From sequence record PX393109.1: 64,000 nt of DNA. One strand, written 5' to 3'. Below, in pieces: positions 1 to 55,296 of the stretch (positions are counted from its first letter, which is position 1; each line of letters begins with the position of its first letter). The notes beneath the pieces were generated by a model. It searched no databases. It worked only from the letters and a program-made list of their open reading frames with translations, and had not been told where the DNA came from. Both the position numbers and the translations under genes were made by a program. Source of the DNA: a phage.

Positions 1-1164
1 GTTGGTGATGATCGGGAGCGGGTTCGTGAGGCTAATGCTGCTCTTCCGGAATATGAAGATCGTGAGAAGTATGCGATGTTCTACTCTAACACTATCCCAG
101 TTCAGGATAGCACGAAGCGCCTCGCAGTGGTAATGATTAAGATCCGCCGTATGTCAGAGCACGAGTCATCAGAGTTAGGTCTTCTGAGTCTTATCCAGGC
201 ATTGGTAGCTAATCATGCTGATATGAAAGCCTATATCGAAGAGTGCGAAGATCCTACAGTAATCAATAGTGGTTATACAGAGTTCAGCGACTTCTATAAC
301 ACTACGGTGCTGGTGAATCCTCCTAGCTATCGTGATGTTGGCATCAGCAATGGGGTAATGTCGTATCATCCGACTAACTTACTCTACCTGCGAATCCTGC
401 GCCATGCTATCCGTATCAGAAGTATTCGCGATACTGCCGAGGCCAGCGAAGCGTTGTTATCTCTGATTCCTCGTGAATCTATTGTAATGCAGAAGATGGT
501 TAACGGACTAATCCTGGAGGGCACTAAGGACTATCGAGGTAACTTAATTAAGCCGATGATCAATAATCTTAAAGGTAAGGGTGGTCGAATCCGTGGTAAC
601 CTGTTAGGTAAGCGCGTTGATTACTCCGGTCGTTCTGTAGTTACTTCGGCTCCGCATCTTCCGCTGGATACTCTTGGTGTACCGTTCAAGATGATGTACG
701 AATTACTTCAGCCAGACATCCTGGGTGAGCTGGAGAACTTATATGGTGGCCCGACTAACGAAGGGTACAACATGTACGACATCAGCAATAAAGTCCAGCG
801 TATGTACAAGAATAAGTCCCGAGTAGCTCTGGAAGTATGCTGGAGACTGTGTGAGAATGCCACGGTGTTCATGAACCGTGCACCATCCCTACACCGTTAC
901 TCAGTATGGGGATTTAAGGTCAGACCTCACATGGGTAAGGAGATTCAGGTTCCTCCGATGGCTATGGGTGGTCAGAACATGGACGTGGATGGTGATACCG
1001 CAGCAATTCACCGTGTACTGACTGATCGTGCTTGCTGGGAAGTACGTAGCCTGATGATGGTTAACCAGAACATCAACAGCTCTATTGACTTCGATAGTCC
1101 GGTCGTGAAGCCGTCCCACGAAATGGTGGTAGGTCTGTTCCAGGCAACTACGGTGGATATGTAA
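1..1164 (+). CDS. Multisubunit RNA polymerase beta'-like protein, N-terminal-half homolog (5' end outside window)
   Basis: Frame is open from base 1. Motifs [33 protein letters not shown] and MDVDGDTAA match bacterial beta' ([41 protein letters not shown]). Protein stops shortly after the catalytic loop, i.e. a split beta'. Confidence 0.75.
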   Translation, partial: [387 protein letters not shown]

Positions 1165-21927: not shown

Positions 21928-22486
21928 TTTCAGTATGCAGAGTCTTGAAGACTTTGTACCAGAGCATGGTAAGAGCGTAGTAGTCTTCTACCACGAGCGA
22001 TTCTATTCCCGAGTAGAAATGCTACAGATGCAAGTAGAGTTCCACTACCAGATGATAGATGGCGATGGCTGCCCAGTTCCTCAGTGGGCATGCTATGATA
22101 ATCGTGACGACATACCGTTCGATAAGCCATTCATCTGGAAAGATAAGCAGGTTAAGTTCCTTACTCTGGACGACTGTATGGAAATACATAATCGTCATCC
22201 CAAGCACCACTATCGTTACTGGTGGGTTAAGGACTGGTTCCTAACTGGCGGAGGAAATAGCCAGTTAAATAGGGAACAGCTGGCGGAGATGTCGTTAGGG
22301 ATTATGAGTGCCGAACAGTTTAGTGCTGAGCTGGATAAGGGATGTGCTGATCTGGAAGCCAAGCGTATCTTACGTGAATTAACTCGTGAATCCCGTACTG
22401 GATATTGTGAGAAGCATGGCACTCGTCAGCTGGGTAAGGACCTATGTGATGTGTGCCGTATTGAACGTGCATTTATGGAGGGATGA
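21908..22486 (+). CDS. hypothetical protein
   Basis: 192-aa ORF directly upstream of the NADAR gene. Confidence 0.55.
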   Translation: MRNMPINFSMQSLEDFVPEHGKSVVVFYHERFYSRVEMLQMQVEFHYQMIDGDGCPVPQWACYDNRDDIPFDKPFIWKDKQVKFLTLDDCMEIHNRHPKHHYRYWWVKDWFLTGGGNSQLNREQLAEMSLGIMSAEQFSAELDKGCADLEAKRILRELTRESRTGYCEKHGTRQLGKDLCDVCRIERAFMEG

Positions 22487-23142
22487 TGCGGATCTGGACC
22501 GACAAGAACTCTATTCTGGAGTTTATCGGAGAGTACCGATTCCTATCTAACTTTTATCCTGTTCCTATTGAGGATAAGAATCCTTACGGGAACGAGACTC
22601 TTCCCTCCCTTACTTACCCTAGTGTGGAGCATGCCTATCAAGCATCTAAGTCTCCATCACTAGCCCATCGTCTTATCATAGCTAGACTTCATACTCCTGG
22701 TGAGGCCAAGAGATATGGACGTAAGCTGCCCATTACTGAATCGTGGAAGGAACAGAGAGTAGATGTGATGGAACACCTACTCCGGATTAAATTCGCGAAA
22801 GGTGGGGAGCTAGCTCAAAAATTGACCGATACTTGGCCTAAGGAGCTGGTCGAAGGAAATACCCACGGAGATTCCTTCTGGGGTATGACTCGTGAGGAGT
22901 ACAAGTCCGTCCTCACTGGTATTAATATGCTCGGACGATTACTGATGAAACTTCGGGAGGAGTTAGTTATGGAACAAATGACCAAGGAGACAGGATCGTT
23001 TGCGGAGTGGCATAAACTGCTGCACCAATACGCTCAGTCTCGTGGCGGTAGCGCTGCTGATGCGGAAGCCTGGCGGGATGATTACGATGAAGGTAAGACC
23101 CCTAAGCAGGCCTACGACGATGAGTGGGGCGAAGAAGACTAA
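22483..23142 (+). CDS. NADAR (YbiA-like, DUF1768) domain protein
   Basis: FLSNFYP ... EHAYQASK ... FAKGGELAQKL ... GDSFWGM matches the NADAR signature. Confidence 0.75.
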   Translation: MMRIWTDKNSILEFIGEYRFLSNFYPVPIEDKNPYGNETLPSLTYPSVEHAYQASKSPSLAHRLIIARLHTPGEAKRYGRKLPITESWKEQRVDVMEHLLRIKFAKGGELAQKLTDTWPKELVEGNTHGDSFWGMTREEYKSVLTGINMLGRLLMKLREELVMEQMTKETGSFAEWHKLLHQYAQSRGGSAADAEAWRDDYDEGKTPKQAYDDEWGEED

Positions 23143-25136: not shown

Positions 25137-25516
25137 TGTCTCATATGACCCGAGAAGAAATCGTATTGATGGTGGCTAAGGTGTGTCACGAAGCTAATCG
25201 TGCATACTGCCATTCTATCGGAGACTTCACCCAATTAAGCTGGGAAGCAACATCCGATGAAATAAAACAGTCGGCTATTGATGGAGCGTATAACTGCTTA
25301 CACAATAACCGTATCAGCCCAGAAGAGTCCCATGAATTCTGGGTTAAAACTAAAAAGGAGCAGGGCTGGAAGTATGGAGAAATCAAAGATCTCGCAGCTA
25401 AGACGCACCCGTGTATGGTTCCATATTCACGGTTGCCGGAAGAGCATCGAGTCAAAGATCACCTCTTCACCAGCATCTGCGCAGCATTCATTAAACAGTA
25501 CAAAAGGGCATCATGA
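25136..25516 (+). CDS. RyR-domain-like protein
   Basis: [20 protein letters not shown]...[20 protein letters not shown] resembles the bacterial/phage RyR-domain consensus. Confidence 0.45.
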
Positions 25517-25983
25517 TGACCGTAGTTCAAGTAAAGAAAACTATTAACTGGGACGACTCTCTGGAGTTACCGAAATACGCTAAAGCTGGTGATGCTGGTC
25601 TTGATCTTCGTGCGATGATTAAGACTGACGAAATCGATAAAATCGCTGTAAATCCTGGCGAAACTATCCTGGTCCCTACCGGTCTAGCGATCAACATCGG
25701 CGATCCGAACATCGCTTCTGTGATTCTTCCCCGCAGCGGCCTCGGCCATAAAAATGGCATCGTACTGGGTAACTTGGTTGGTCTTATCGACTCCGGCTAT
25801 CAAGGAGAACTGATGGTGTCTGTGTGGAACCGTAGTAACGAATCTTTCGTTATTAACCACGGCGACCGTATCGCTCAAATGGTGTTTCTTCCCGTTATCC
25901 ATCCAGAGCTCCAGCTTGTGGATAAATTCTCTGATGTTTCTGAACGTGGCGACGGTGGGTTTGGCCATTCCGGGATTAAGTAA
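25513..25983 (+). CDS. dut: dUTP diphosphatase (dUTPase)
   Basis: [44 protein letters not shown] and DRIAQMVF motifs. Confidence 0.9.
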
Positions 25984-26013
25984 TCCTGGGGTAGTTAGAC
26001 TACGGTAATTACT

Positions 26014-26039
26014 ATTGACCTCTTTGCGGAGAGGTCAAT
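26014..26039 (+). terminator. Hairpin / putative terminator after dut
   Basis: attgacctct-ttgcgg-agaggtcaat (10-bp stem), followed by a T-rich tract. Confidence 0.5.
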
Positions 26040-26065
26040 GTTATTCTACCATAGAACCGAGGAAT

Positions 26066-26269
26066 ATGATGGATATTGAGCAACTAACTAAGGATCTTAA
26101 TCGTAACCAGATTACGGTTATTCGTTCGGAGCACTTAGCTCCCAAGACTATGATCGTGTCTGATGATATCTGGGGCACATTCAAGAATAATAATAATAAT
26201 AATAATAATAATGCTACTGTAGAAGCTACAGATGAAGAATCTGTTAAGAACATGCTGGAGCATCCGTAA
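26066..26269 (+). CDS. hypothetical protein with poly-Asn tract
   Basis: Start MMDIEQ with SD GAGGA; contains the (AAT)9 repeat. Confidence 0.5.
   Translation: MMDIEQLTKDLNRNQITVIRSEHLAPKTMIVSDDIWGTFKNNNNNNNNNATVEATDEESVKNMLEHP
26185..26211 (+). repeat. (AAT)9 trinucleotide microsatellite
   Basis: aataataataataataataataataat, in frame, encoding N9. Confidence 0.9.
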
Positions 26270-26892
26270 TGATCCTTGGTAAATCTTATATTGAGCAGGC
26301 AATTACTCAAGGATTATGGACCTATCACAGTTATCTGGACAATCAGGAACCACGAATCGGACAGAATAGTGTAGATGTACGCTTAGCTCCGTTCTTCCTG
26401 GTTCCTCAAAAGATGCCTGATGGCCATGTAGTAGATCCCTATAAACCATGTACTCTTCCGGAGTATCGCGAGGTAGAGGCACTATACTACGATCTTAAAC
26501 CTGGGGAGTTCATCTTAGGCTCAGCATCTGAACGTATCGACTGTACTACCATGTTGCCTGAGAAGTGGTTCGAGCATTATGACCCACGATACCGTAACAG
26601 CACTGTAGACCGTGGTGTGGCATTCTGTCAGCATTACGACGGTCGCAGCACTATGGGTCGTCTGGGAATACTGAGCCATGTCAGTGCAGGTTTCGGGGAC
26701 TTTGGATTCAAGGGAGCATTTACTCTAGAGATTGTTAACCTAAGCCCTAACACTATCCGACTGCGTTCTAACATGCGCATCGGTCAGATTTACTTTACTG
26801 AGGTTGCTGGTGGTGGCTACGACCTTTACAAAGGTTACGACCAGACTGACTTTAAACCAGTCGCACCAATCATAGGTCGCGATCGTTTCTAA
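26269..26892 (+). CDS. dCTP deaminase-like protein (dUTPase-fold)
   Basis: VDVRL and DGRSTMGRLGI...LEIVN...IRL..NMRIGQIYF align with Dcd motifs. Confidence 0.6.
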   Translation: MILGKSYIEQAITQGLWTYHSYLDNQEPRIGQNSVDVRLAPFFLVPQKMPDGHVVDPYKPCTLPEYREVEALYYDLKPGEFILGSASERIDCTTMLPEKWFEHYDPRYRNSTVDRGVAFCQHYDGRSTMGRLGILSHVSAGFGDFGFKGAFTLEIVNLSPNTIRLRSNMRIGQIYFTEVAGGGYDLYKGYDQTDFKPVAPIIGRDRF

Positions 26893-26904
26893 TTAGGAGA
26901 AATT

Positions 26905-27282
26905 ATGTACAACGCATTCAACGGACCTCATCCAGAGGCTCTGCCGGTAATCGACGAAGCTAATCTGGTAAAGCGCTTCCGCGAGAGCTATGCTAGCCAG
27001 GTTGATTTAAAACAAATCATAGTTCTGGCATGTAATCAGCGTAAAGCTGCTATCCAGGATAAAATCGACCAGTTAAATAAGGCCAAAGTTCGTTTAATCG
27101 ACAGTCTGGCTGGTGAAGGTACTAAGTTGGGTGCGGCTGATATTAGCGACCAGGTCAGAGGCATGGTCGCAGATACCAATAATCTCCAATCGTTAATCAA
27201 AGAGATTGACGACTCGGTGAACATGGTATTCTCAGCTCTGGGTGGGCTACTGGAAGAGCCCACCACAGAGAAATCTCTGTAA
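26905..27282 (+). CDS. hypothetical protein
   Basis: ORF with SD AGGAGA. Confidence 0.55.
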   Translation: MYNAFNGPHPEALPVIDEANLVKRFRESYASQVDLKQIIVLACNQRKAAIQDKIDQLNKAKVRLIDSLAGEGTKLGAADISDQVRGMVADTNNLQSLIKEIDDSVNMVFSALGGLLEEPTTEKSL

Positions 27283-27313
27283 TCCGTCACGGATGATTAA
27301 TTTGGAATGAACT

Positions 27314-27676
27314 ATGACTTCTGCCGATTGCGTAGCTATGGTCGTCTACTATGAGGCCAGGGGAGAGTCGGAACGTGGGCAGTTAGCTGTAGCCCACGTG
27401 GTACTCAACCGAGCGAAGAAATACGGTATAAGCCCATGTAAGGTAGTTAAAAACAGGAATACCTTTCCGTGGTACCGTCACATCTCTTACCAGAATATGA
27501 AAGATCCTAAATCTAAGGCATCTGCTATTCATATTGCGGCAAGAGTTAAATACAGTGAAGATCCCACATTCGGGGCTACTCACTTTCATAATGTAAAGGT
27601 TAGGCCTAACTGGAAGGGCTATAGAATGACAGCCAGAATAGGCGACCACAAGTTCTATAAGAAGGTAAAGAAATGA
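27314..27676 (+). CDS. SleB/CwlJ-like cell wall hydrolase domain protein
   Basis: VAMVVYYEARGESERGQLAVAHVVLNR matches the Hydrolase_2 N-terminal signature; no signal peptide. Confidence 0.6.
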   Translation: MTSADCVAMVVYYEARGESERGQLAVAHVVLNRAKKYGISPCKVVKNRNTFPWYRHISYQNMKDPKSKASAIHIAARVKYSEDPTFGATHFHNVKVRPNWKGYRMTARIGDHKFYKKVKK

Positions 27677-28227
27677 CTTTGAGTAATATGGATATAGACA
27701 ACCTAATCGGTATGTTGGGAGGTACAGCAGTACTCGTTCTAACAGTCCGTCCTATCGACCAGGCTGAGAGCTATGATATAGTAGTCCGAGAGTCTAGCTT
27801 TGAATTCGAGCAAGCTCTTCGTCATGCTATGCACGATCTGACTATTACCAATAACGGTATTAAGCACCGTCTACTTAAAGTGTCGATAGGTATTAAATCG
27901 TCCGATGTATTCGCTAATCCTGATATCGTAAAGACCTGGGAAATCTGCGATAATCCACACACTCCTAAGATGAACGAAGCTATCGAGCGCGACCAGCAGT
28001 ATCAAGAAGTCGTTCATCAGGCGGTAGAGCTAGTATTTTTACTTAGCAACTGCCAGACTATTTATTCAGCGTATGAAGGCAAGGTCGATATGACTCAAGA
28101 GTCGGTTCGGGAGGCCGTTCGTGTATCTCTTTTCAATATCTTATCTGGTAAGTCAGAAACCAAGATGGATGCTGAAGTAGAGAAGGTAATTAAACCATTC
28201 CGGGAATTATTTGTACGGAGTATCTGA
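27673..28227 (+). CDS. hypothetical protein
   Basis: ORF. Confidence 0.55.
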   Translation: MTLSNMDIDNLIGMLGGTAVLVLTVRPIDQAESYDIVVRESSFEFEQALRHAMHDLTITNNGIKHRLLKVSIGIKSSDVFANPDIVKTWEICDNPHTPKMNEAIERDQQYQEVVHQAVELVFLLSNCQTIYSAYEGKVDMTQESVREAVRVSLFNILSGKSETKMDAEVEKVIKPFRELFVRSI

Positions 28228-28469
28228 TGGACTTGATGAAATTAAACATCAAACTAGAGGGAGTGTGTAAGGCAGGGATAGTGAAGGTATGCTATAACTG
28301 TAAAGAGCACCCCACTCTACGTCTTGACGAGAATAACCACTTACATCTGGAGTGTCCTAACTGTAAATGGGACGACCATGAAGTGGTTACTGATTTAGAT
28401 ATGGAAGATGAAGCAGTTGCTGATCGTGAGCTGGGGCTTATGGTCGAGATGTGGAATCGTCATAACTAA
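28227..28469 (+). CDS. zinc-ribbon protein
   Basis: CYNCKEH...CPNCKW. Confidence 0.5.
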   Translation: MDLMKLNIKLEGVCKAGIVKVCYNCKEHPTLRLDENNHLHLECPNCKWDDHEVVTDLDMEDEAVADRELGLMVEMWNRHN

Positions 28470-28484
28470 ATTAATCTACACAAA

Positions 28485-28519
28485 AATGGGACTCACTCTA
28501 TCACGAGTGAGTCCCATTT
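28485..28519. terminator. Bidirectional rho-independent terminator at the strand convergence point
   Basis: aaatgggactcact-ctatcacg-agtgagtcccattt (14-bp stem) flanked by A-run and T-run. Confidence 0.8.
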
Positions 28520-28521
28520 AT

Positions 28522-28854
28522 TTAGTGCTTAAAGATGCCGATGATGGCGTCGTTAAACAATCCTACCAGTACACTAATAATTGCTAACGCACCACTCCAG
28601 AATTTAATCTTGTCATTTACTTCCTTAATCTCCTTCCTTAGATCATCCTGCTCATCTTCAAGGTCAGAAATCTTCTTAGACATGAAATTCTGTGCAACGA
28701 CTAGCTCACGGATATCCGCTAATATCTCCGTCTGCTTACGAGAAGACTCCATAAGTTGATCAAGGATTACTCCCTGAAACTTCTGGTTAGATTCAAGTCT
28801 CGCTAGCCTATCGAGTTGGTGTCCACCGAACTCAGACTCTTCCCTCTCGCGCAT
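28522..28854 (-). CDS. coiled-coil protein with C-terminal TM (lysis-associated?)
   Basis: Charged helical region followed by GALAIISVLVGLFNDAIIGIF; last gene of the - strand array. Confidence 0.5.
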   Translation of the reverse strand: MREREESEFGGHQLDRLARLESNQKFQGVILDQLMESSRKQTEILADIRELVVAQNFMSKKISDLEDEQDDLRKEIKEVNDKIKFWSGALAIISVLVGLFNDAIIGIFKH

Positions 28855-28864
28855 ACAAGATTCC

Positions 28865-29074
28865 TCACTTCTGATTGCTCTCTAGGCAATCTATATAAGA
28901 TACCAATTTAGCTAATTCAGCGTTAGGAATCCTGATCCCGTCTTTTTCCGCTATCGCTGCTATCGGTGGACGGTCGCACCTTACCTTCGGCGTCTGCATC
29001 TGTACCGGTAGGCTGTTGCAGCTTACCAAACTTAGACTCCCAAGCACCAGTAGGGTCATTTTTAATTTCTTCAT
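28865..29074 (-). CDS. o-spanin-like outer-membrane lipoprotein
   Basis: Signal plus lipobox LSLVSC; short Pro/Cys-containing mature part; located after the endolysin. Confidence 0.55.
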   Translation of the reverse strand: MKKLKMTLLVLGSLSLVSCNSLPVQMQTPKVRCDRPPIAAIAEKDGIRIPNAELAKLVSYIDCLESNQK

Positions 29075-29153
29075 CTTTCTTCTCCCGAGAGCGAGTCTGC
29101 ATAGCAGATACGAGTAGGGTAATAAGCTGAAGAATAAGAGTAAGAGCTTTCAT
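28923..29153 (-). CDS. possible i-spanin-like ORF overlapping the o-spanin in another frame
   Basis: N-terminal TM ALTLILQLITLLVSAM; atypically short, no clear coiled coil. Confidence 0.25.
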   Translation of the reverse strand: MKALTLILQLITLLVSAMQTRSREKKDEEIKNDPTGAWESKFGKLQQPTGTDADAEGKVRPSTDSSDSGKRRDQDS

Positions 29154-29156
29154 ACC

Positions 29157-29573
29157 TTACTCCTTTTTACCCTCTGGATTTTTGATCAGAGACTTACCGT
29201 AATCAAGGGCATCAATAGCCTGGGTAGCCTTACTCACTAGGTGCGGATCATCCTGAGTTTGGACTACGTCGGAAAGAACCTGCTTAGCTTTATCCATGGT
29301 CTGCACTTTCTGCTCATCCTGAGCGGCAGCTTTCTTATCTACCCTGGCAGCTGATTTAGGCAAGTTCAGAGCGACGAAGTTTAAGATGGACGATGCATAA
29401 CCGAGGTATTTCTTAATTACCCCAATGTATTCGTCGTCTTTAGTATTAGGAGTGATCTTAGCGATCTTCTCCAGAGCTTGCACCAGCACTGATGCGAAGC
29501 CGATGATGGCTAGTGCAAGAGCGATGTAATCATCGATCTTGGATCCATCAAGTACATCCAGGATATTGTCCAT
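29157..29573 (-). CDS. membrane protein, holin or i-spanin candidate
   Basis: TM YIALALAIIGFASVLVQAL followed by a charged helical C-terminal domain; immediately downstream of the endolysin. Confidence 0.5.
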   Translation of the reverse strand: MDNILDVLDGSKIDDYIALALAIIGFASVLVQALEKIAKITPNTKDDEYIGVIKKYLGYASSILNFVALNLPKSAARVDKKAAAQDEQKVQTMDKAKQVLSDVVQTQDDPHLVSKATQAIDALDYGKSLIKNPEGKKE

Positions 29574-29587
29574 TATTGATCACCATA

Positions 29588-30235
29588 TTAAAGAGTTAAA
29601 GTCTGATTTGCTCTGCGTAGTACAGGCAGTCGGTCAGGTACGGTCGCAGCAGACCCATTTATCTTCTGGGTTACTTTGGTGAATGCGTCCTGATCTGCTA
29701 ATTGATTTAATTTATTTTTATCCCAGAACCACCCTGCAGTAAGCATGATCGTTTCGAAATCCGTCTCTACTAACTCTGGATCTTCTACCAAACGGTCATC
29801 GCCAAAGATACTCAAAGAGGCCTCTCGATAGTTAGCTTTGCCAGTTAGATGCATAGCTCCACGGCCAATGTACTTATACCCATCTCCGCTAGCTGGAGTT
29901 CCGTTACCCATGCGATTAGCATACACCTGATTGGCTAACTTCTCAGGGTCGCGTATGTAAGCATTAGCATTAAGCTTACCAGGTTCACCGCGAAGAGTAA
30001 ATCTACTCGGCCACACAGCTACCAGACGAGACGCAGAGGTATAATACAGGGACTCCACAAACTTAGTGTAGTCCCGAGTTTCAAAGGCAGTCTGCGCCAT
30101 AAAATAGCGCAGACGACGATTGGTATTGATACCGTAACGCTCGATAGTAGTATTAATGGCGGGTAGCAGCTTTTCCAGCACTTCCGTTGAAGTTGTCGGG
30201 AGGAACTTCTTCAGCTGGTCAAGTGTAACGCTCAT
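29588..30235 (-). CDS. endolysin, glycoside hydrolase family 19-like
   Basis: YFMAQTAFET...DGYKYIGRGAMHLTGKANY matches GH19 endolysin motifs. Confidence 0.8.
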   Translation of the reverse strand: MSVTLDQLKKFLPTTSTEVLEKLLPAINTTIERYGINTNRRLRYFMAQTAFETRDYTKFVESLYYTSASRLVAVWPSRFTLRGEPGKLNANAYIRDPEKLANQVYANRMGNGTPASGDGYKYIGRGAMHLTGKANYREASLSIFGDDRLVEDPELVETDFETIMLTAGWFWDKNKLNQLADQDAFTKVTQKINGSAATVPDRLPVLRRANQTLTL

Positions 30236-30259
30236 ATTATACCCCTACCTAGTTAAGGC

Positions 30260-30436
30260 TCACTTCTGAGCCTGTTTTCTCTGGAGAGCCACCTGTAGTG
30301 ACTCTATTTCGACCCATCCCTGGCCATCGAATCTCCATCTTTTACCCTGCAAAGACTGGAAGATTGAGTTTACCGGCGCTACTGCCGGTATTTCTGTTTC
30401 GAATCCAGTCTTGAACCATGGTTCGTTGCTAGACAT
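30260..30436 (-). CDS. small hypothetical protein (58 aa)
   Basis: ATG with SD AAGGAG between the tail fibre gene and endolysin; no TM. Confidence 0.3.
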   Translation of the reverse strand: MSSNEPWFKTGFETEIPAVAPVNSIFQSLQGKRWRFDGQGWVEIESLQVALQRKQAQK

Positions 30437-30445
30437 GTTTACTCC

Positions 30446-33400
30446 TTAACTAAAGTATGCGCGAACGTTCTTAACGAACGGACGGTTAACTGGGTTGGAT
30501 AGAGACAGGGTGATACGGATGCGGGTATTAGCCACATTTACTCCTGACAGTTTGTAAGGTACAGTGTACCACCCATCTCCCAGAGCGGTTCCGGTACTCC
30601 CTGACAAGGCTACCCATTCGCTATCCTTCTGGTACTGAACGGTTACGCTAGCACCAGATGGTACATACTGATCCAGGATGACGTTAAGAGTTACCGGAGT
30701 AATGTTACCGTTAGGGATACTGAACTGACGCTGGGTATATACCCCAGGAGTATCAGTAGTACCAGAACGGAAGATGACGCCACCGAAGACCTTCGGAGAT
30801 ACGGTAGGATCACCGGTATTAAACTCAGCCATCAGACTGAAAGTACCAGAGAAGTTCTCAGTATACGTTTCAGAGTTAACGTTGAGGTTAATGTTATCAG
30901 TACCGTTAGTGAGATAGAATCTCACGGAGGTATTTGCCGGAGTCTCAATATCAGCAGTAAGCGAAAGACTGTTGGTATTGCTAGCTACCGTTACAGAACC
31001 CAAGTTAACAGTGCGAGTAGAACTATAGTCAGCAGCATGGAGACGATACACCAAGTCTTCATCCTGAACTGGAGACCAGGTAGATTCGTTCGCAGAAGTC
31101 AGAAGAACACCCTGAGCTGGCTGATTCACTACATACTGCTGCTTATCGGGATCATATCCGTTTATCTTAGCTGTGGCTACCTTACCCTGATAGTTAGCCG
31201 TAGCAACTATGATGGCATACTCAGTACCACCAGTCACTGTTACTGGATAACGAAGATTGATCTTGTTCCACCCCAGTACACACTTATTAGCCGGAACTTC
31301 ACCGAAGCCATAAAGCTGAGTGGAGTTAGGGATACCTACCAAAGTAGGGACCAGTTTAATCTGGAGTGTGTTAGTAGGCAGCTCAGTCAGATAGATAGAT
31401 ACTGCGTTAATATCACGAGTAGCCTGGATAGTGAAGGTCTGAGCCACTGGATCGTAACCCCACGGAACAGCACCACCAGTCCAGTTCTGACCGTAGTCGA
31501 CTTTACCAGAGTTGTAGATGGTTACGGTACCGCGAGTAATAGCCTTAGTGGTCTTACCAGTAGCAACATACTGATACGTACCGTTAACCAAACCACCAGA
31601 CAGCATATGAGCATACTGTACAGCACCGTTATCATCCGCAGTCAAGGTAACCACTGGCAGGTTACGGAAAGTAAGATCAATCTGTTCGTTGGCAGCATAC
31701 CCAGATAGCTTAATCGTGATCGTAGTATCTACCGGCAGAAAGCCACCATGGAAGTACGACCAGAAGCTACGAGTATCGATCTTAGCTGGTGAAACAGAGA
31801 TCATCGCCTGAGGTACCTGACCAGACCCAGCATACGGGTTGATGCGGGTGTCCTTAGTACGGAATTCCTGAGACTGAATTACGGTATCAGTGAATGATAA
31901 CATAATACCATCAGGAGCCAGACTGGACTGCCGTGAGAAAGATGCTCCGATGAACAGCTGACCATCATCGATAATGGCGTTGTTGGTTAATCCAGCATCA
32001 CGCATGTTACCGTTAAGCAGGGAGTCAACTACTACACCTTTCTTAGTCGTAGTCGGATCGGTAGAGCGAGTTTCATCACGGAGCGAAAGCTGGGCGATGT
32101 TGTACTGCATGTCGCTTACCAGAGACATCAGATCTTTTAGCTCATTATAAGTAACCACTTCGATGCGGTCATTGTTAATGACCGGATCTTGACCCTTAGT
32201 CAGACGAACAGTTGCGATAGACAGCAACGTAGCTGAAGTACCTGGTAACTGAGCGTTTGCCAAGATTGCCGGAATACCCTTAGTGATCTGAACCGCACCA
32301 GAGGCATCGATAGATACACGGTCATAGCGAGACAGGAAGTAAGAGTAGGTTACGTAGAACGTAGACCCAGATACCAGAGCATCACTGGTGGAAATAGTTA
32401 TGGAGGTATCGTTCCAGGTCGGGATGAACTGATCAATGTACTGATACGTAACCTGGTAAGTAGAACCAGGAGATGGTTCGTTACCAGTAGGTGACCAGTC
32501 TACAGAGTCCCCGTTCTGTACATAGTCACTACCTTTAACATAGACAGTACCACCCTGCTGTACAGAAATAATCTGCAGAACAGGAGTATCCGGAAGTAAG
32601 TCAGACGAACCCGTTGCGGAACCATGAGTCACCGTACGAGTCACCTGCTTAGTACCGGATACAGCAGTTACCTGATCAATTACAGAGTAGCGCAGTTGAT
32701 AGGTGTAAGTACCTGCTGTAAACACGTATGGCTCTGAAGCTACGTTACCAGTATCGTTGATAGGGTCCAGACGCACGGTACTTTCATAGGCGAACAGTGC
32801 TTCGTTTCCGAGTACACGAGCCTTGCCCGCAGACATGTTCAACATAATCTGCTGGGTAGAGCCATCGATGCCTGCATAGGACAGAGTTAATCCGTCCAGA
32901 ACATAGTTACCGTGAGTATCAGAATCGTAGCGACCAAGAAGACCAGAGAACTGGTCGAGATCATTACGAGACTTGGTGGTCTTAACCAGTACGCCATTCT
33001 TGAAATAGAATACTGGGAAGAAGGTATCTCCTTCTGGAACATCATCGGCCAACAGCCAAGTAGTTACCTTCTGGAGACGGTCAGCACCAGCTGAACCATA
33101 GCTCGGAGAGTTCTGATACTGCATGAGGAGCTCAGGATCTTCGAGATAGGTGATTACCTTATCAGAGATAGATACACCTAAAACAGCCTCACCAGCAGTA
33201 GGAAACGATGCATCCGTAACAGCAGGTACATTCATAGCCATACCGGCATAGATTAGCGTACCTTCGGTTATAGAGATTACACCGTCTCCAAGAGCGGAAA
33301 TATCCGCCCCATCAGTAATGGCACCATCACCGACCAAGAAGCCGGACAGTGTAGAGACGTTATTGAGCTGCTGATCCTGAATTTCGTTTAGCTCCGAGCT

Positions 33401-33490
33401 CTGGAGCGGCCTGTCCGCGATAAACAGATGCTTGGCGTAGTTCTTCTTAGCCGCAAATCTGTTAAAGTAATCAGACGGTAAAGTTGCCAT
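30446..33490 (-). CDS. large tail fibre / tailspike protein (1014 aa)
   Basis: Ser/Thr/Gly-rich beta-type composition; sits in the receptor-binding-protein locus. Confidence 0.6.
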   Translation of the reverse strand: MATLPSDYFNRFAAKKNYAKHLFIADRPLQSSELNEIQDQQLNNVSTLSGFLVGDGAITDGADISALGDGVISITEGTLIYAGMAMNVPAVTDASFPTAGEAVLGVSISDKVITYLEDPELLMQYQNSPSYGSAGADRLQKVTTWLLADDVPEGDTFFPVFYFKNGVLVKTTKSRNDLDQFSGLLGRYDSDTHGNYVLDGLTLSYAGIDGSTQQIMLNMSAGKARVLGNEALFAYESTVRLDPINDTGNVASEPYVFTAGTYTYQLRYSVIDQVTAVSGTKQVTRTVTHGSATGSSDLLPDTPVLQIISVQQGGTVYVKGSDYVQNGDSVDWSPTGNEPSPGSTYQVTYQYIDQFIPTWNDTSITISTSDALVSGSTFYVTYSYFLSRYDRVSIDASGAVQITKGIPAILANAQLPGTSATLLSIATVRLTKGQDPVINNDRIEVVTYNELKDLMSLVSDMQYNIAQLSLRDETRSTDPTTTKKGVVVDSLLNGNMRDAGLTNNAIIDDGQLFIGASFSRQSSLAPDGIMLSFTDTVIQSQEFRTKDTRINPYAGSGQVPQAMISVSPAKIDTRSFWSYFHGGFLPVDTTITIKLSGYAANEQIDLTFRNLPVVTLTADDNGAVQYAHMLSGGLVNGTYQYVATGKTTKAITRGTVTIYNSGKVDYGQNWTGGAVPWGYDPVAQTFTIQATRDINAVSIYLTELPTNTLQIKLVPTLVGIPNSTQLYGFGEVPANKCVLGWNKINLRYPVTVTGGTEYAIIVATANYQGKVATAKINGYDPDKQQYVVNQPAQGVLLTSANESTWSPVQDEDLVYRLHAADYSSTRTVNLGSVTVASNTNSLSLTADIETPANTSVRFYLTNGTDNINLNVNSETYTENFSGTFSLMAEFNTGDPTVSPKVFGGVIFRSGTTDTPGVYTQRQFSIPNGNITPVTLNVILDQYVPSGASVTVQYQKDSEWVALSGSTGTALGDGWYTVPYKLSGVNVANTRIRITLSLSNPVNRPFVKNVRAYFS

Positions 33491-44374: not shown

Positions 44375-44702
44375 TGGAAAGAGTCAGGTCTACCATGTTC
44401 GAGTTATTAGAAGTATCTACAGCGGATGCTGAAGCTACTACCTGATCACCATCCATGAGAATTACCTTAGCAGAATCGATATTCAATGCCGACTTCTGAG
44501 GAAGATTAGTGTCTTTACCTAGCAGGTAGACATCATTTCCAGATGCTGGTTTAATCTTAAGCTGGAACTGAGCTGCAGCATCTGTAACACCATTATGGGC
44601 TGCCAGGATTCCAACGATTATAGCACCAGTAGCCGGAGTAGTATAAATGGTAGATTCAGATTTAGTTAGCGTAGCGCTAGCTCGTTTAAATTTAGCTGCC
44701 AT
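44361..44702 (-). CDS. small structural protein
   Basis: ORF within the fibre locus. Confidence 0.45.
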   Translation of the reverse strand: MAAKFKRASATLTKSESTIYTTPATGAIIVGILAAHNGVTDAAAQFQLKIKPASGNDVYLLGKDTNLPQKSALNIDSAKVILMDGDQVVASASAVDTSNNSNMVDLTLSIVEN

Positions 44703-44711
44703 GAGTATTCC

Positions 44712-51802: not shown

Positions 51803-52438
51803 CTATTTAATAAACCAGGATCTTACATGATCCTCATCCGGCAGATATGCTGGGGTGAAGGACAGTTGCACCTTAGCCCATAACGGCTGACCAGTAGAGC
51901 GAGCTATTTCCTTGCTGTACTGAGTCGACACGTTCACAAGTATAAGGCTAGTTGCCCTGAACCACTGGCCGATCTGCAGAGTCCATGTACCTGTTATAGC
52001 GGTATCCGGATTGAAATTACCAGTCGCCTTGGTTACAGAGTACCCATTAGGAGCTCCGAACATAAGTCCGTTCTTGGTAGTGTATGTTACCCCAGCCAGG
52101 AACTCTTTAACTATGTCCAAAGGTCTGATGGATGGATTGTATGAGATAATTGTCAGAGGCACTGGAAATACTGGTTTGGTACTTCCTCGCCACTGAGCGA
52201 TAGTTTCACGAATATTTCGTATAACCATCTGATCCATACCCACGGTATTAGCTACCGCGTTAGCACCTCGCGTTAAGGTACCAGCCATCAAGTTTTCACC
52301 AGATTCAAACAGAGACGAAATATCGAATCCGAAATCCGTCTCTATAAGACCTACAGTACGGGACTTGTTACCAGGATGGACTAAGACAATTCTAGCATCT
52401 GGATTCGCGTATAGCTTCTCGATGTCTAATACTGCCAT
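51803..52438 (-). CDS. tail protein, unknown role
   Basis: ORF immediately downstream of the tape measure gene. Confidence 0.45.
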   Translation of the reverse strand: MAVLDIEKLYANPDARIVLVHPGNKSRTVGLIETDFGFDISSLFESGENLMAGTLTRGANAVANTVGMDQMVIRNIRETIAQWRGSTKPVFPVPLTIISYNPSIRPLDIVKEFLAGVTYTTKNGLMFGAPNGYSVTKATGNFNPDTAITGTWTLQIGQWFRATSLILVNVSTQYSKEIARSTGQPLWAKVQLSFTPAYLPDEDHVRSWFIK

Positions 52439-55296
52439 TATGAGAACACCATCTTGTTGAAGAACGCCAGACCATAGTCATCAATAGTGTCACTCTTATC
52501 CGTAACCACTGAAGGTACGTTAGGAGTTATAGCAGCAGGATCCTGGTTCCTGGTGGAACCAGCAGCCATAGCGGCCAATTGATTATTCTGATCTTGACGT
52601 TGTTTATTAACATCGTCTGTAGGGGTAGGAGCCTTAGGGACCTCGAGAGGTACGTTCTGAGCAACCTGGGTAGCTCCTGACTTAGATGCCTCAGCATCAG
52701 AACCATTCTTCATCCATTCTGCAGTATATGCAGCACGGTCTGCTAACCCATTATACCCACCATTGACCGCCTTAGTTGCTACTTCAACAGTAGCTCCTTT
52801 CTTCTCCATCTGTGGTCGCACACGATCTTTCCAATATGCAACCGCTAACTTATTGGCGATTTCAGGATCTTCAGCCATCTCAGGATTATTTTCGAGATCT
52901 ATACCCAGCATCTTACCATACTTCTGGTAATTAGCCCTACCAGTAAGCTGTATCCAGCCACGACCCTTATAACGAACCCCGTCCCCAGGATTTACGTTAC
53001 CCAGGTCTTTACGACCCTCGTACGCTTTACCAGAGGCTAGTTCTTTATTATAACGGAAGTTACCAGACTCATGCTGAACCTGGCCCATGAATAGAGCCAG
53101 TTCTTTATCGTCGATTCCCTGCTGCTTAGCATACTCTGCCAGACTATTCTTACGCTCCGTCTGCTCCTTAGAGCTGGGGAGGTATCGAGAGGCATTCTGC
53201 ATAGCGGACTGTAGGATACTACCACCGGCATCAACAGCACTGTCATAACCATTGGATATTATTCCACCAACAGTTCTTGCGCCATTAACTATGGAGGCAC
53301 CTGCTCCGATAATCCCATTGGATACCGCAACAGCTCCTTTCTTAAGTCCTTTAAAGAAGTCACCGACTACCGGTAGGTCTGATAGCCAATCAAATAGGCC
53401 ACCAATACCTTCACCTATAGACTTCATAGGATCATTTATAAATTCTGTAACCAAGTTAGATAATTCACTGATTTCTCCGGTTATGGACTTGGTTACCGAG
53501 TCGTAACTATCGGAGAACCACTTAGAGGTATCGGAGACGGACTTGGAAAGCCAGTCGGATGCATTCTTATACATCCCTGAGAATGACGCCGTTAGGTTAT
53601 TTGCAATATTAACCGCACCTTCGTATGTCTTCTGTACAGTATCTACAGCAGACTTAGCGACATTCACTACATCCTCTGGAGAGGCTAACCCGAAAGTTAA
53701 CCCAGAGGCTAGTGAGGCTGCCGATGAGCCAGCCTTAGCCCAGTTATCATCGCTGCCGAATAGCTCCTTAGCCTTATCTCCATCCCATCCAGAGACAGCA
53801 TCGTAAACTCCCATACCAGCAGTTACGGCTAACCCAATTCCTGGAATGAACTTAGCTCCTCTAAGGCCAGCTCTCAGAAGCGCACCACCTCCACGAGCAG
53901 CGCCTCTCGCAAGTCCTCCGGTGGCAGCTGCGTCGACTGCTCTGCCTGCCATCCTGCCAAGTCTACCGAACCTGCTGAGTCCACGACCGAGACGAGTCCT
54001 GCCTCTTCTTCCCCTACTTCTTCTACCTCTGCGGCCACGCTCATCGCCACCGCCGATAAGATCATCAAAGATAGAATCAGCAGCACCCTGCTTCTGTTCG
54101 TTAGCGAAAGGATCAATTTCTTCATGGTTAGCTCTTCCATTAGCTCTGGTTACCGATACCAGTTGCTCATCGATATCCACCAAAGTAGACTGACCATTAA
54201 TTAACTGAGTCTGCTTACGGGACAGTTCGTCCTGGCCAGACCTAGTCTCATTAATTAACTCTCGAATGCTGTTGTTAATCTCGTCCAGCTTCTGATTCTG
54301 CTCCTCTTCTGGAGTAGGTCCGAAACTGGGTTTTGGATTTACGGTAGCATCTGGAGTAGTAATCTCGACCTTAGTCTCTTTACCGTCGACTTTAGCAGAG
54401 GCCTCAGTGGAAGATTCTCCATCGGGTTTATTTTCTGATTTAAGAATCTCTCGAGATATGGCCTTTAATTCTTCGTCAGTAGTATCCGGTTCGTCTTTCC
54501 TTTTACGGAACATGGATGATATTGCACCATCCAATTTATCAGATATACCGAATACACTATCCAGGTCCCCTAAACCTAAGGCACCTAGACCAGATGAGAG
54601 TGCTTCCTTGCGGACAGAACCTACGGAAAACTGCGATGGGGTATTAAGGAACGAATCCCTTAAATTACGGCCAGTTTGACGTATGTTAAATCTGTCAAGA
54701 GTATCCCTCTCATCCTTACTCCTGTTCGTTAAGTTAGCAACCTTTACCGTATCAGAATATTTAATCTTTACGTTCTGATTGGCTAACTCAGCTCTAGCTT
54801 GCTCAATGATGCGGTTATTCTTCCGCATATTGATAGTACTAAGTGAGGAATTGGATACGTTAAGTACTCGAAGTAACCCACTCAGTTCTCTCATAGCAGT
54901 CATACGGACGCCACGAGTAAGTCTAGAGTCATTTAATATTGACTGATAGGTGTCGAGTAAAGATTCTGCAGCGATGGCCTTTTGATCCTCGGCAGTAGCG
55001 TACATATCCGCAACCTGGCCTACTTTATCTCTTAAGGAGATCAGCTGCTCAGCTTCCTGGGTAGAGAACTTAGCCCTACCGTAAAACTTACCCATCAGTG
55101 TATTCAGGGTCTTAACTTCATCAGAGCTAAGACCGACATCTACATCGTTGCTGGAGAGTATCTTAACAGTAGAACGAATCCCGATAAGATCTTCTTCCAG
55201 TTTAGACCTGGCATGCTCGTAATCAGAGGCATCCTTAATCGGATCGGTAGCTTCTGTACGAGCAATCCCAGATATGCCTCTAACTATGCTAACCAT
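52438..55296 (-). CDS. tail tape measure protein with C-terminal GH19 lysozyme-like domain
   Basis: 952 aa; helical N-terminus; Arg/Gly-rich low-complexity block; C-terminal FMGQVQHESGNF...YKGRGWIQLTGRANY homologous to the endolysin GH19 core. Confidence 0.7.
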   Translation of the reverse strand: MVSIVRGISGIARTEATDPIKDASDYEHARSKLEEDLIGIRSTVKILSSNDVDVGLSSDEVKTLNTLMGKFYGRAKFSTQEAEQLISLRDKVGQVADMYATAEDQKAIAAESLLDTYQSILNDSRLTRGVRMTAMRELSGLLRVLNVSNSSLSTINMRKNNRIIEQARAELANQNVKIKYSDTVKVANLTNRSKDERDTLDRFNIRQTGRNLRDSFLNTPSQFSVGSVRKEALSSGLGALGLGDLDSVFGISDKLDGAISSMFRKRKDEPDTTDEELKAISREILKSENKPDGESSTEASAKVDGKETKVEITTPDATVNPKPSFGPTPEEEQNQKLDEINNSIRELINETRSGQDELSRKQTQLINGQSTLVDIDEQLVSVTRANGRANHEEIDPFANEQKQGAADSIFDDLIGGGDERGRRGRRSRGRRGRTRLGRGLSRFGRLGRMAGRAVDAAATGGLARGAARGGGALLRAGLRGAKFIPGIGLAVTAGMGVYDAVSGWDGDKAKELFGSDDNWAKAGSSAASLASGLTFGLASPEDVVNVAKSAVDTVQKTYEGAVNIANNLTASFSGMYKNASDWLSKSVSDTSKWFSDSYDSVTKSITGEISELSNLVTEFINDPMKSIGEGIGGLFDWLSDLPVVGDFFKGLKKGAVAVSNGIIGAGASIVNGARTVGGIISNGYDSAVDAGGSILQSAMQNASRYLPSSKEQTERKNSLAEYAKQQGIDDKELALFMGQVQHESGNFRYNKELASGKAYEGRKDLGNVNPGDGVRYKGRGWIQLTGRANYQKYGKMLGIDLENNPEMAEDPEIANKLAVAYWKDRVRPQMEKKGATVEVATKAVNGGYNGLADRAAYTAEWMKNGSDAEASKSGATQVAQNVPLEVPKAPTPTDDVNKQRQDQNNQLAAMAAGSTRNQDPAAITPNVPSVVTDKSDTIDDYGLAFFNKMVFS

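What the first reader, a model, noticed from the sequence alone, without database searches (positions are those of the whole stretch)
27314..30235. Three peptidoglycan-hydrolase domains: early SleB-like gene plus two GH19 domains
A SleB/CwlJ-type hydrolase without a signal peptide is encoded in the + strand early block (27314-27676). The lysis cassette carries a GH19 endolysin (29588-30235), and the tape measure protein carries a homologous GH19 domain at its C-terminus (within 52438-55296). The early SleB-like gene is out of place for lysis and may act in superinfection, on the host wall, or as a virion enzyme.
Basis: partly seen in the sequence, partly recalled or inferred. Interest (0 to 1): 0.45.

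Follow-up and report, generated by a model that had tools for sequence, protein, structure and literature searches.

The report
Three ordinary phage wall-cutting enzymes
This E. coli phage carries three real cell-wall-cutting domains: a lysis enzyme, a related domain inside a tail protein, and a small extra SleB-type enzyme among the DNA-metabolism genes, a combination already seen in many large virulent phages, so it is ordinary.

Summary
All three domains are at the stated coordinates and are far beyond chance. ORF 27314-27676 is a complete stand-alone SleB/CwlJ-type domain: Pfam Hydrolase_2 E 2.5e-20, and a confident model that matches only the SleB crystal structures. It keeps the catalytic Glu (E14) and the family's Cys pair, is under purifying selection (dN/dS 0.11), and has no export signal. 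ORF 29588-30235 is a GH19 endolysin at the head of a full lysis cassette. The 952-aa tail-module protein has a GH19 domain at aa ~700-865, about 90 residues before its C-terminus. The two GH19 domains are only 33% identical.

The window is ~96% identical to Escherichia phage vB_EcoM_IME392. A SleB-like gene in the early or DNA-metabolism block, apart from the lysis cassette, is a documented pattern (T5-likes, Vequintavirinae) and also holds in PAK_P4 and Cr30; 1,238 phage records carry a homologue. The only twist here is the missing signal peptide, and about a third of the nearest family representatives lack one too.

The most likely role is an accessory lysin that depends on the holin, but this is inferred. 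The "tape measure" label is plausible from gene position only. Verdict: a new member of a known kind, of low interest.

The parts
27314..27676 (+). Stand-alone SleB/CwlJ-type (Hydrolase_2) catalytic domain, 120 aa, with no signal peptide. Catalytic Glu is E14; Cys pair is C6/C42; the motif TFPW replaces the family consensus QFSW.
   Evidence: Pfam 2.5e-20 over the full profile. Model pLDDT 92.4, matching only 4fet/4f55 at TM 0.78. Invariant residues kept. dN/dS 0.11 against a syntenic relative. No hydrophobic segment. Cys pair and motif statistics.
27673..28227 (+). 184-aa ORF of unknown function. Its start overlaps the stop of the SleB-like ORF (ATGA), which suggests translational coupling. 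It is restricted to this phage clade and evolves fast.
   Evidence: Sequence. No Pfam, PHROG or NCBIfam hit. Only clade-internal homologues. 40% aa identity to the L007 relative, against 80% for the SleB-like ORF.
26269..26892 (+). dCTP deaminase-like gene. It marks the operon that holds the SleB-like ORF as nucleotide-metabolism (early/middle) context.
   Evidence: Pfam DCD 9.5e-24. dUTPase lies just upstream at 25513-25983. The dCTP-deaminase/SleB neighbourhood is shared with Acinetobacter phage Ab1-TPeters.
28486..28517 (.). 13-bp stem, 6-nt loop hairpin flanked by an A-run and a T-run. It is a probable bidirectional terminator between the convergent + (early/middle) and - (late) blocks.
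   Evidence: Read directly from the sequence. The simple terminator scan did not list it.
29588..30235 (-). GH19 endolysin, 215 aa, with no TM or signal segment. E52-x8-E61 motif and a GRG..LTG..NY signature.
   Evidence: Pfam GH19 4e-8, phrog_181 8.4e-60. PDB 9eoi at 2.8e-31, aligned over the full length. dN/dS 0.10. No hydrophobic segment.
29157..29573 (-). Holin candidate, 138 aa, with one strong TM segment at aa 16-34. It lies immediately downstream of the endolysin.
   Evidence: Hydropathy. phrog_9685, function unknown. Assignment rests on position.
28865..29153 (-). Overlapping spanin pair. The i-spanin candidate is 28923-29153 (76 aa, hydrophobic N-terminus). The o-spanin candidate is 28865-29074 (69 aa, lipobox L-V-S-C19).
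   Evidence: ORF translations. phrog_3198 'Rz-like spanin' at 6e-4 for the 69-aa ORF.
52438..55296 (-). 952-aa tail-module protein, a probable tape measure or tail-internal protein that carries a peptidoglycan hydrolase domain.
   Evidence: Gene order is sheath 57238-59037, tube candidates 56703-57290 and 56212-56688, gp26-like 55375-56205, then this ORF, then baseplate genes. It has Arg/Gly-rich and Gly/Ala-rich stretches and is predicted mostly helical, though the model is unreliable (pLDDT 38.5). No tape-measure family hit. The N-terminal 700 aa is clade-specific.
52702..53199 (-). GH19 domain of the 952-aa protein (aa ~700-865), with an E743-x8-E752 motif. About 90 residues follow it.
   Evidence: Pfam GH19 3.7e-9 at aa 730-826; phrog_181 3.5e-39 at aa 720-920. 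33% identical to the endolysin over 106 aa. Up to 56% identical (about 50% in most of the best hits) to GH19 domains of Erwinia, Vibrio and Synechococcus phages.

Best explanation
The window is part of a virulent E. coli myovirus of the IME392/EP_H11 group, and its three murein-cleaving domains have three different jobs.

(a) The GH19 protein at 29588-30235 is the canonical cytoplasmic endolysin. It heads an endolysin, holin and spanin cassette.

(b) The GH19 domain inside the 952-aa tail-module protein (probably the tape measure) is the virion-borne enzyme. It would open the wall locally during DNA entry, much as T4 gp5 relates to T4 endolysin.

(c) The 120-aa ORF at 27314-27676 is a functional single-domain SleB/CwlJ-type enzyme, predicted to be a lytic transglycosylase. 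It is made from the replication and nucleotide-metabolism operon. Because it has no signal peptide, SAR or TM segment, it must stay in the cytoplasm. It can reach peptidoglycan only when the holin next door permeabilises the inner membrane. It therefore most likely acts as an accessory, holin-dependent lysin.

Shown here: domain identity, fold, conserved catalytic and Cys residues, purifying selection, absence of export signals, operon context, and a complete separate lysis cassette. Inferred: enzymatic activity, early/middle expression, holin dependence, and any contribution to lysis.
For: Identity and integrity of the SleB-like ORF:
- Pfam Hydrolase_2 at 2.5e-20 over the whole profile.
- A confident model that matches only the SleB catalytic domains.
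- The catalytic Glu aligns with that of 4f55, and all 17 invariant columns of a 13-sequence alignment are kept.
- The Cys pair is kept, as in 146 of 155 family representatives. In Aeromonas phage ASG01 Cwh the equivalent C34A mutation abolishes lysis and E42A reduces it (PMC10975977).

The gene is functional. It is syntenic in a diverged relative, with dN/dS 0.11, the same as the GH19 endolysin at 0.10.

There is no export signal. In contrast, the homologues in TrudiRoth, CR9, Cr30, naam, PAK_P4 and Myduc all have N-terminal signal or TM segments.

Hydrolase_2 proteins can lyse E. coli from within once they are exported. ASG01 Cwh does so, CB7_83 is toxic in E. coli, and CR3_087 has been implicated in lysis.

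A complete canonical lysis cassette with a signal-less endolysin sits about 1.5 kb away, so a holin route to the wall exists.

Against: No expression, activity or genetic data exist for this gene or for any signal-less homologue.

The gene is not in the lysis cassette and is on the opposite strand.

Both GH19 and SleB-type enzymes cut the MurNAc-GlcNAc bond, so a second lysin adds no obvious new bond specificity.

The highly conserved QFSW motif reads TFPW here. Only this clade has that form among 155 representatives. The Ser-to-Ala change at this motif lowered activity in ASG01 Cwh, so catalytic efficiency may be altered.

The best-studied homologues are exported enzymes, so their behaviour may not transfer to this one.
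Confidence: 0.5

Rival explanations
1. The gene is a dispensable accessory or conditionally useful enzyme. It is active, but contributes nothing measurable to lysis of laboratory E. coli. It would be retained because it helps on hosts or growth states with altered peptidoglycan, or simply as a mobile accessory gene common to large virulent phages.
For: The canonical cassette is already complete. The family is scattered across unrelated phage groups, in 1,238 records, which fits a horizontally shared accessory gene. Its neighbours are fast-evolving, clade-restricted ORFs.
Against: dN/dS is 0.11 at dS of about 1, and synteny is strict in a relative whose neighbouring genes have diverged to 40-60% identity. 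This argues for a steady selective benefit.
Confidence: 0.2
2. The protein is a virion-packaged enzyme that is ejected with the DNA and helps to breach the wall of the next host.
For: It is a small soluble protein with no export signal. Some phages do package small muralytic proteins (own knowledge).
Against: Homologues were not found in virion proteomes: CB7_83 is not among the 26 CB7 virion proteins, and PA5oct gp368 was not detected. The gene sits in the nucleotide-metabolism operon, not in the structural block. The virion already has a GH19 domain in the 952-aa tail protein.
Confidence: 0.08
3. The protein acts in the periplasm before lysis, remodelling the wall during infection or excluding superinfecting phages, as the signal-bearing homologues of T5-likes and Vequintavirinae might.
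For: Most phage homologues examined are exported and sit in early or DNA-metabolism blocks. The conserved Cys pair points to function in an oxidising compartment.
Against: This protein has no signal peptide, SAR or TM segment, and there is no upstream in-frame extension. Exported Hydrolase_2 proteins lyse or poison E. coli, which does not fit an early benign role unless activity is tightly limited.
Confidence: 0.07
4. The protein moonlights as a cytoplasmic regulator. It would be a muralytic enzyme made early that also binds a phage protein, as T7 lysozyme binds T7 RNA polymerase.
For: It is cytoplasmic and encoded with early/middle genes. The phage encodes a multisubunit RNA-polymerase beta'-like protein. 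The T7 gp3.5 precedent comes from my own knowledge and was not tested here.
Against: There is no evidence of any partner. The catalytic and Cys residues are conserved exactly as in exported enzymes. The family is spread over phages with very different transcription strategies.
Confidence: 0.04

Closest known systems
SleB-like 'cell wall hydrolase' of T5-like phages (AKFV33 ORF81, TrudiRoth bas30_0078, Salmonella Epseptimavirus 'endolysin far from holin')
   Same: Same Pfam domain, about 41% identity. It is encoded among early or DNA-metabolism genes, apart from the holin-endolysin pair, in a ~110-kb virulent enterobacterial phage.
   Different: The T5-like proteins carry a cleavable Sec-type signal peptide; the window protein has none. 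The main endolysin there is an M15 peptidase, not GH19.
Vequintavirinae SleB-like proteins (CB7_83, CR9_095, CR3_087, naam_76)
   Same: Same domain, 34-43% identity. They lie in the early region, next to helicase/primase genes or rIIA/rIIB, and coexist with other lysins and a virion lysin.
   Different: They have a signal peptide, are toxic when expressed in E. coli, and in some Certreviruses are followed by a holin candidate.
Aeromonas phage ASG01 Cwh (hydrolase-2 endolysin, experimentally tested)
   Same: Same catalytic domain. The conserved residues correspond: ASG01 C34/E42/N60/R61/C72 map to C6/E14/N32/R33/C42 here.
   Different: ASG01 Cwh has a 23-aa signal peptide and lyses E. coli without a holin. 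It is that phage's predicted main lysin. Its Ser82 position is Pro52 here.
Acinetobacter phage Ab1-TPeters CDS0127 ('endolysin', 137 aa)
   Same: It is signal-less and begins directly at the catalytic helix. It is 42% identical. It sits beside a dCTP deaminase and an Rv2179c-like exonuclease at the end of the early block, facing the late genes, which is the same neighbourhood as here.
   Different: The gene order differs slightly. Its function is equally untested.
T4 endolysin (gp e) and T4 gp5 tail lysozyme pair
   Same: One glycosidase family is used twice: once as the soluble endolysin and once as a domain of a tail-internal protein used at entry (own knowledge). Here both are GH19, at 33% identity.
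   Different: T4 uses GH24. There the domain sits in the gp5 hub/spike protein, not in a tape-measure-like protein.
Tape measure or tail-internal proteins with muralytic domains (mycobacteriophage TM4 TMP motifs, T5 Pb2, phiKZ gp181)
   Same: A long, largely helical tail-internal protein carries a peptidoglycan hydrolase module (own knowledge). The 952-aa protein occupies the position after the sheath, tube and gp26-like genes.
   Different: The domain here is GH19. No tape-measure family model matches, so membership is positional only.
E. coli phage vB_EcoM_LNA4 (GH19 endolysin plus a PF07486 protein)
   Same: The same pairing of a GH19 endolysin with a second Hydrolase_2 'endolysin' in one E. 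coli myovirus (PMC12031403).
   Different: The LNA4 Hydrolase_2 protein is 190 aa, with its domain at 70-181, so it has an N-terminal extension that is absent here.

Membership tests
Pfam PF07486 Hydrolase_2 (SleB/CwlJ catalytic domain) | HMM score above the gathering threshold over the whole domain | tested here: met
   73.4 bits against a cut-off of 27, E 2.5e-20, profile positions 1-100 of 100.
Pfam PF07486 Hydrolase_2 (SleB/CwlJ catalytic domain) | SleB catalytic-domain fold | tested here: met
   AF2 pLDDT 92.4. The only significant Foldseek PDB hits are 4fet and 4f55, TM 0.74-0.78 over 119 columns.
Pfam PF07486 Hydrolase_2 (SleB/CwlJ catalytic domain) | Catalytic glutamate in the (Y/F)-E-A/S-R-G-E motif | tested here: met
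   E14 aligns with the first Glu of the GESRGE motif of 4f55 and is invariant in the alignment. The essential role of this Glu is taken from PMC12331253.
Pfam PF07486 Hydrolase_2 (SleB/CwlJ catalytic domain) | Conserved Cys pair (Glu-8 and Glu+24..35) and QFSW motif | tested here: inconclusive
   The Cys pair is present (C6/C42), as in 146 of 155 representatives. The motif is TFPW instead of QFSW, which only this clade shows. The effect on activity is unknown.
Pfam PF07486 Hydrolase_2 (SleB/CwlJ catalytic domain) | Lytic transglycosylase activity on peptidoglycan | not testable with these tools
   Needs a purified enzyme and muropeptide analysis.
Spore cortex-lytic enzyme SleB proper (NCBIfam TIGR02869 equivalog) | Full-length match above the equivalog cut-off, including the N-terminal peptidoglycan-binding domain | tested here: not met
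   34.3 bits against a cut-off of 236.5. Only profile positions 90-201 are matched. The architecture is single-domain, like CwlJ, so this is not a SleB orthologue.
Canonical holin-dependent endolysin (role claimed for the SleB-like ORF) | Muralytic domain without a signal, SAR or TM segment | tested here: met
Canonical holin-dependent endolysin (role claimed for the SleB-like ORF) | Encoded in the lysis cassette next to the holin | tested here: not met
   It is on the opposite strand, in the nucleotide-metabolism operon, about 1.5 kb from the holin candidate and separated from it by a terminator hairpin.
Canonical holin-dependent endolysin (role claimed for the SleB-like ORF) | Contributes to host lysis; release depends on the holin | not testable with these tools
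   Needs genetics and physiology.
GH19 phage endolysin (ORF 29588-30235) | GH19 domain with the two catalytic Glu residues (E-x8-E) and the GRG..LTG..NY signature | tested here: met
   Pfam 33.8 bits against 25.5. The E52/E61 residues align with the Glu residues of 9eoi over the full length, E 2.8e-31. The catalytic role of the dyad comes from my own knowledge of GH19 endolysins.
GH19 phage endolysin (ORF 29588-30235) | Adjacent holin and spanin genes | tested here: met
   A 1-TM holin candidate at 29157-29573, and an overlapping spanin pair with a lipobox at 28865-29153. The assignments are predictive only.
Tape measure protein (952-aa ORF) | Gene located after the sheath, tube and chaperone genes and before the baseplate genes | tested here: met
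   Sheath matches phrog_23 at 2.2e-62. The gp26-like protein matches PF12322 and phrog_150. The baseplate wedge protein matches phrog_219 at 1.4e-25.
Tape measure protein (952-aa ORF) | Match to a tape-measure family model | tested here: not met
   No Pfam, NCBIfam or PHROG tape-measure hit. Public records annotate the protein as a glycoside hydrolase or MltD.
Tape measure protein (952-aa ORF) | Extended alpha-helical protein whose length sets the tail length | tested here: inconclusive
   The model is mostly long helices, but pLDDT is 38.5. Tail length data were not available.
Virion-associated peptidoglycan hydrolase (952-aa ORF) | Presence in the virion | not testable with these tools
   Needs virion mass spectrometry. 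Only its position in the tail module supports it.

The most novel reading that the evidence does not exclude
The signal-less SleB-type enzyme is stockpiled in the cytoplasm from early in infection for a purpose other than bulk lysis. One possibility is a T7-lysozyme-like regulator of the phage's own transcription or replication machinery. Another is a lysin gated by redox state, in which the conserved C6-C42 disulfide forms, and the enzyme switches on, only after the holin releases it into the periplasm.
Probability: 0.1. Interest if true: 0.55.

Novelty: new member of a known kind. Interest (0 to 1): 0.2.

Why it matters
The finding matters little on its own. It corrects annotation: the ORF is not annotated in the IME392 record and is 'hypothetical' in EP_H11, and the 952-aa protein is labelled MltD or glycoside hydrolase rather than a tail-internal lysin.

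It also adds one more case to an unresolved but minor question. Many large virulent phages (T5-likes, rV5-likes, Pakpunavirus and others) keep a SleB-type hydrolase among their early or DNA-metabolism genes, in addition to a normal lysis cassette, and nobody knows why.

The signal-less forms, found here, in Ab1-TPeters and in about a third of the nearest family representatives, would be a clean system for separating 'second endolysin' from 'early periplasmic enzyme'.

Tried and rejected
- A sequence search of the PDB with the SleB-like ORF gave only a marginal hit (4f55, E 0.009). The fold search was needed to settle the match.
- Sigma-70 promoter and terminator scans of 24.5-30.6 kb found no more sites than shuffled sequence: 12 against 10.6 and 5 against 4.0. 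The phage encodes an RNA-polymerase-like subunit. Expression timing therefore could not be inferred.
- The tape-measure claim was tested with Pfam, PHROG and NCBIfam, tblastn against phages, a protein search with the N-terminal 700 aa and AlphaFold2 (pLDDT 38.5). Only clade-internal homologues and one weak hit turned up, to a 993-aa protein beside a gp26-like gene on a contig with T4-type head and portal genes. There was no family assignment.
- The downstream, possibly translationally coupled 184-aa ORF was examined as a possible partner, by analogy with YpeB or GerQ. It has no family hits and only clade-internal homologues, so nothing can be said about it.
- A decaying remnant that lost its signal peptide was considered and rejected. 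dN/dS is 0.11, all invariant residues are kept, and there is a large signal-less subfamily.
- A recent duplication of the two GH19 domains was rejected, because they are only 33% identical.


Full report
What the window is. A megablast of 26000-31000 finds Escherichia phage vB_EcoM_IME392 (116 kb, 96.4% identity, full cover) and phage EP_H11 (92.5%). The window has two convergent blocks. The + strand block (1-28469) encodes:
- an RNA-polymerase beta'-like fragment;
- a Pol X-like protein;
- an NAD-dependent ligase;
- a NADAR protein;
- an Rv2179c-like exonuclease;
- a dUTPase and a dCTP deaminase-like protein.

The - strand block (28522-64000) encodes the lysis cassette, tailspikes, baseplate, tail sheath and other structural proteins. 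A 13-bp-stem hairpin flanked by A and T runs (28486-28517) lies between the two blocks. 'Early' for the + block is therefore an inference from gene content, not from expression data.

Observation check. The three ORFs exist as stated.

The 120-aa ORF at 27314-27676 matches Pfam Hydrolase_2 (PF07486) at E 2.5e-20, covering all 100 profile positions, and phrog_938 at 1e-22. An AlphaFold2 model built on a 10-sequence alignment has pLDDT 92.4. Its only significant matches in the PDB are the SleB catalytic domains 4fet and 4f55, at TM 0.74-0.78 over 119 of 120 residues. It is not a SleB orthologue: the NCBIfam spore_SleB equivalog scores 34 bits against a cut-off of 236.5, and only over the catalytic half. 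The architecture is single-domain, like CwlJ.

The ORF at 29588-30235 is a GH19 endolysin: Pfam 4e-8, phrog_181 8.4e-60, and PDB 9eoi at 2.8e-31 over the full length. It has an E52-x8-E61 motif.

The 952-aa ORF at 52438-55296 has a GH19 domain at aa ~700-865 (Pfam 3.7e-9, phrog_181 3.5e-39) with E743-x8-E752. About 90 residues follow the domain, so it is near the C-terminus, not at it. The two GH19 domains share 33% identity over 106 residues (E 4e-9). They are homologous, but not a recent duplication.

Is the SleB-like gene functional? A 13-sequence alignment with phage and metagenomic homologues has 17 invariant columns, and the window protein keeps them all. These include E14, which aligns with the first Glu of the GESRGE motif of the SleB structure. 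[quoted passage not shown]

A Cys pair, 8 residues before and 24-35 residues after the Glu, is present here as C6 and C42. It is present in 146 of 155 family representatives. In the experimentally tested Aeromonas phage ASG01 Cwh, the equivalent C34A mutation abolishes lysis and E42A reduces it (PMC10975977).

There is one departure. The strongly conserved QFSW motif reads TFPW here, and only this clade shows that form. The Ser-to-Ala change at this motif lowered ASG01 Cwh activity. I regard this as a caveat on catalytic efficiency.

A metagenomic relative (L007) has the identical gene order from the dUTPase to the DUF4815 protein. Its SleB-like gene is 80% identical at the protein level, with dN/dS 0.11. 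That is the same as the GH19 endolysin (0.10) and far from neutral. The stop codon overlaps the start of the next ORF (ATGA), so the gene is embedded in the operon.

No export signal. The ORF begins three residues before the first helix of the domain and cannot be extended upstream. It has no hydrophobic segment. The homologues I translated are different. T5-like TrudiRoth, Certrevirus CR9, Caulobacter phage Cr30, Vequintavirus naam, Pakpunavirus PAK_P4 and Proteus phage Myduc all have an N-terminal signal-like or TM segment.

The signal-less form is nevertheless not rare. Among the 158 nearest family representatives, 48 start within 25 residues of the catalytic Glu. Acinetobacter phage Ab1-TPeters has such a 137-aa form. 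It sits beside a dCTP deaminase and an Rv2179c-like exonuclease at the end of its early block, which is the same neighbourhood as here.

How unusual is the arrangement? tblastn finds homologues in 1,238 phage records. In the genomes I inspected the gene sits among early or DNA-metabolism genes:
- with RNase H and an exonuclease in TrudiRoth;
- with helicase and primase genes in CR9 and Cr30;
- with a ligase and a dCMP deaminase in PAK_P4;
- just upstream of rIIA/rIIB in naam.

Only in Myduc does it follow the holin.

The literature already describes this pattern. T5-like AKFV33 has 'lysozyme, holin and cell wall hydrolase SleB' in its early region (PMC3326045). Salmonella T5-likes have an M15 endolysin next to the holin and a SleB-domain 'endolysin far from holin' (PMC11180984). 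All Vequintavirinae have a signal-bearing SleB-like protein that is toxic in E. coli (PMC7344957). E. coli phage LNA4 pairs a GH19 endolysin with a PF07486 protein (PMC12031403). Several wall-degrading enzymes in one genome is also normal, for example five in PA5oct.

Mechanism. The lysis cassette is complete without the SleB-like gene. It has a signal-less GH19 endolysin, a one-TM holin candidate (29157-29573) and an overlapping spanin pair whose outer member has a lipobox (28865-29153).

A cytoplasmic muralytic enzyme has no substrate until the holin opens the membrane. The conserved Cys pair also suggests that the enzyme works in an oxidising compartment. The most economical reading is therefore an accessory lysin that is released by the holin. 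I put this at about 0.5.

Roles that need early access to the wall require an export route that the sequence does not show. A virion role is disfavoured because homologues are absent from the CB7 and PA5oct virion proteomes, and because the tail already carries a GH19 domain. A dispensable or conditionally useful accessory gene remains a serious rival. A regulatory moonlighting role in the manner of T7 lysozyme is not excluded, but nothing supports it.

The 952-aa protein. It follows the sheath (phrog_23, 2.2e-62), two small tube-like ORFs and a T4 gp26-like protein, and it precedes the baseplate genes. It has Arg/Gly-rich and Gly/Ala-rich stretches. Its predicted structure is mostly long helices, but the model is unreliable (pLDDT 38.5).

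No tape-measure family model matches it. The N-terminal 700 residues have only clade-internal homologues, all of which carry GH19. Public records call it a glycoside hydrolase or MltD. 'Tape measure' is plausible, at roughly 0.7, but it rests on position. 'Tail-internal protein with a GH19 entry lysin' is the safe description. The pairing of an endolysin with a homologous tail-borne domain parallels T4 e and gp5 (own knowledge).

Verdict. The interpretation that the SleB-like gene is oddly placed is weakened by the fact that this is its usual place in large virulent phages. The only distinctive point, the lack of a signal peptide, is shared by a large subfamily. This is a new member of a known kind, of low interest. 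It has some value as an annotation fix and as a tractable case for asking what these early-block SleB-type genes do.

Noticed in passing
window 76-1164 (+); also 7788-8561, 8626-10569, 13009-13977, 22483-23142: The + block encodes a multisubunit RNA-polymerase beta'-like fragment (Pfam RNA_pol_Rpb1_2, 1.3e-23), a Pol X-like protein, an NAD-dependent DNA ligase, a glycosyltransferase-like protein and a NADAR protein. IME392 is listed among phages whose DNA polymerase resembles that of YerA41, a phage with hypermodified thymidine (PMC12686479). An RNAP-like subunit in a ~116-kb E. coli myovirus may deserve its own look.
   Followed up: partly
window 28486-28517: A 13-bp-stem, 6-nt-loop hairpin with AAAAA upstream and TTATTT downstream lies in the 52-nt gap between the convergent + and - blocks. 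It is a probable bidirectional terminator. The simple scan missed it.
   Followed up: partly
window 28522-28854 (-): A 110-aa coiled-coil protein with a C-terminal TM segment (aa 90-108) is the last gene of the late strand, just after the spanin pair. It is 85% conserved in the L007 relative. It could be a further lysis-cassette component such as an antiholin or tail-anchored protein.
   Followed up: no
window 27673-28227 (+): A 184-aa ORF whose start overlaps the stop of the SleB-like ORF (possibly translationally coupled). It has no family match and only clade-internal homologues, and it evolves much faster (40% against 80% identity to the L007 relative).
   Followed up: partly
L001 (MH719082, IME392) locus 6875-7656; L002 (EP_H11) 7943-8305: The SleB-like ORF and the 125-aa ORF upstream of it are not annotated at all in the IME392 record, and the SleB-like ORF is 'hypothetical protein' in EP_H11. 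The 952-aa protein is annotated 'MltD precursor' in EP_H11.
   Followed up: yes
L002 (EP_H11) 6875-7525: EP_H11 has an extra 651-bp CDS between the dCTP deaminase and the 125-aa ORF. It is absent from the window and from IME392, and it explains the two-piece alignment. It may be a mobile insertion such as a homing endonuclease.
   Followed up: no
L011 (Proteus phage Myduc) 2854-3399: The Myduc Hydrolase_2 endolysin is annotated 'No TMD - endolysin (not SAR)', but its N-terminus (MHYFRAILLSILLTFGASVHA/ES) looks like a Sec signal peptide.
   Followed up: no
window 30446-33490, 35816-38437, 38562-41549, 42932-45629 (-): The late block has a 1014-aa DUF4815 protein (7e-131), a colanic-acid-degrading-type tailspike (phrog_6117, 7.7e-177), a second tailspike (phrog_1171, 7.7e-288) and several fibre proteins with shared N-terminal adaptor modules. 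This suggests a branched, multi-receptor tail apparatus.
   Followed up: no
window 27461-27472 (aa 50-53 of the SleB-like ORF): The family-wide QFSW motif is TFPW in this clade only, in 2 of 155 representatives. It may mark altered substrate handling.
   Followed up: partly
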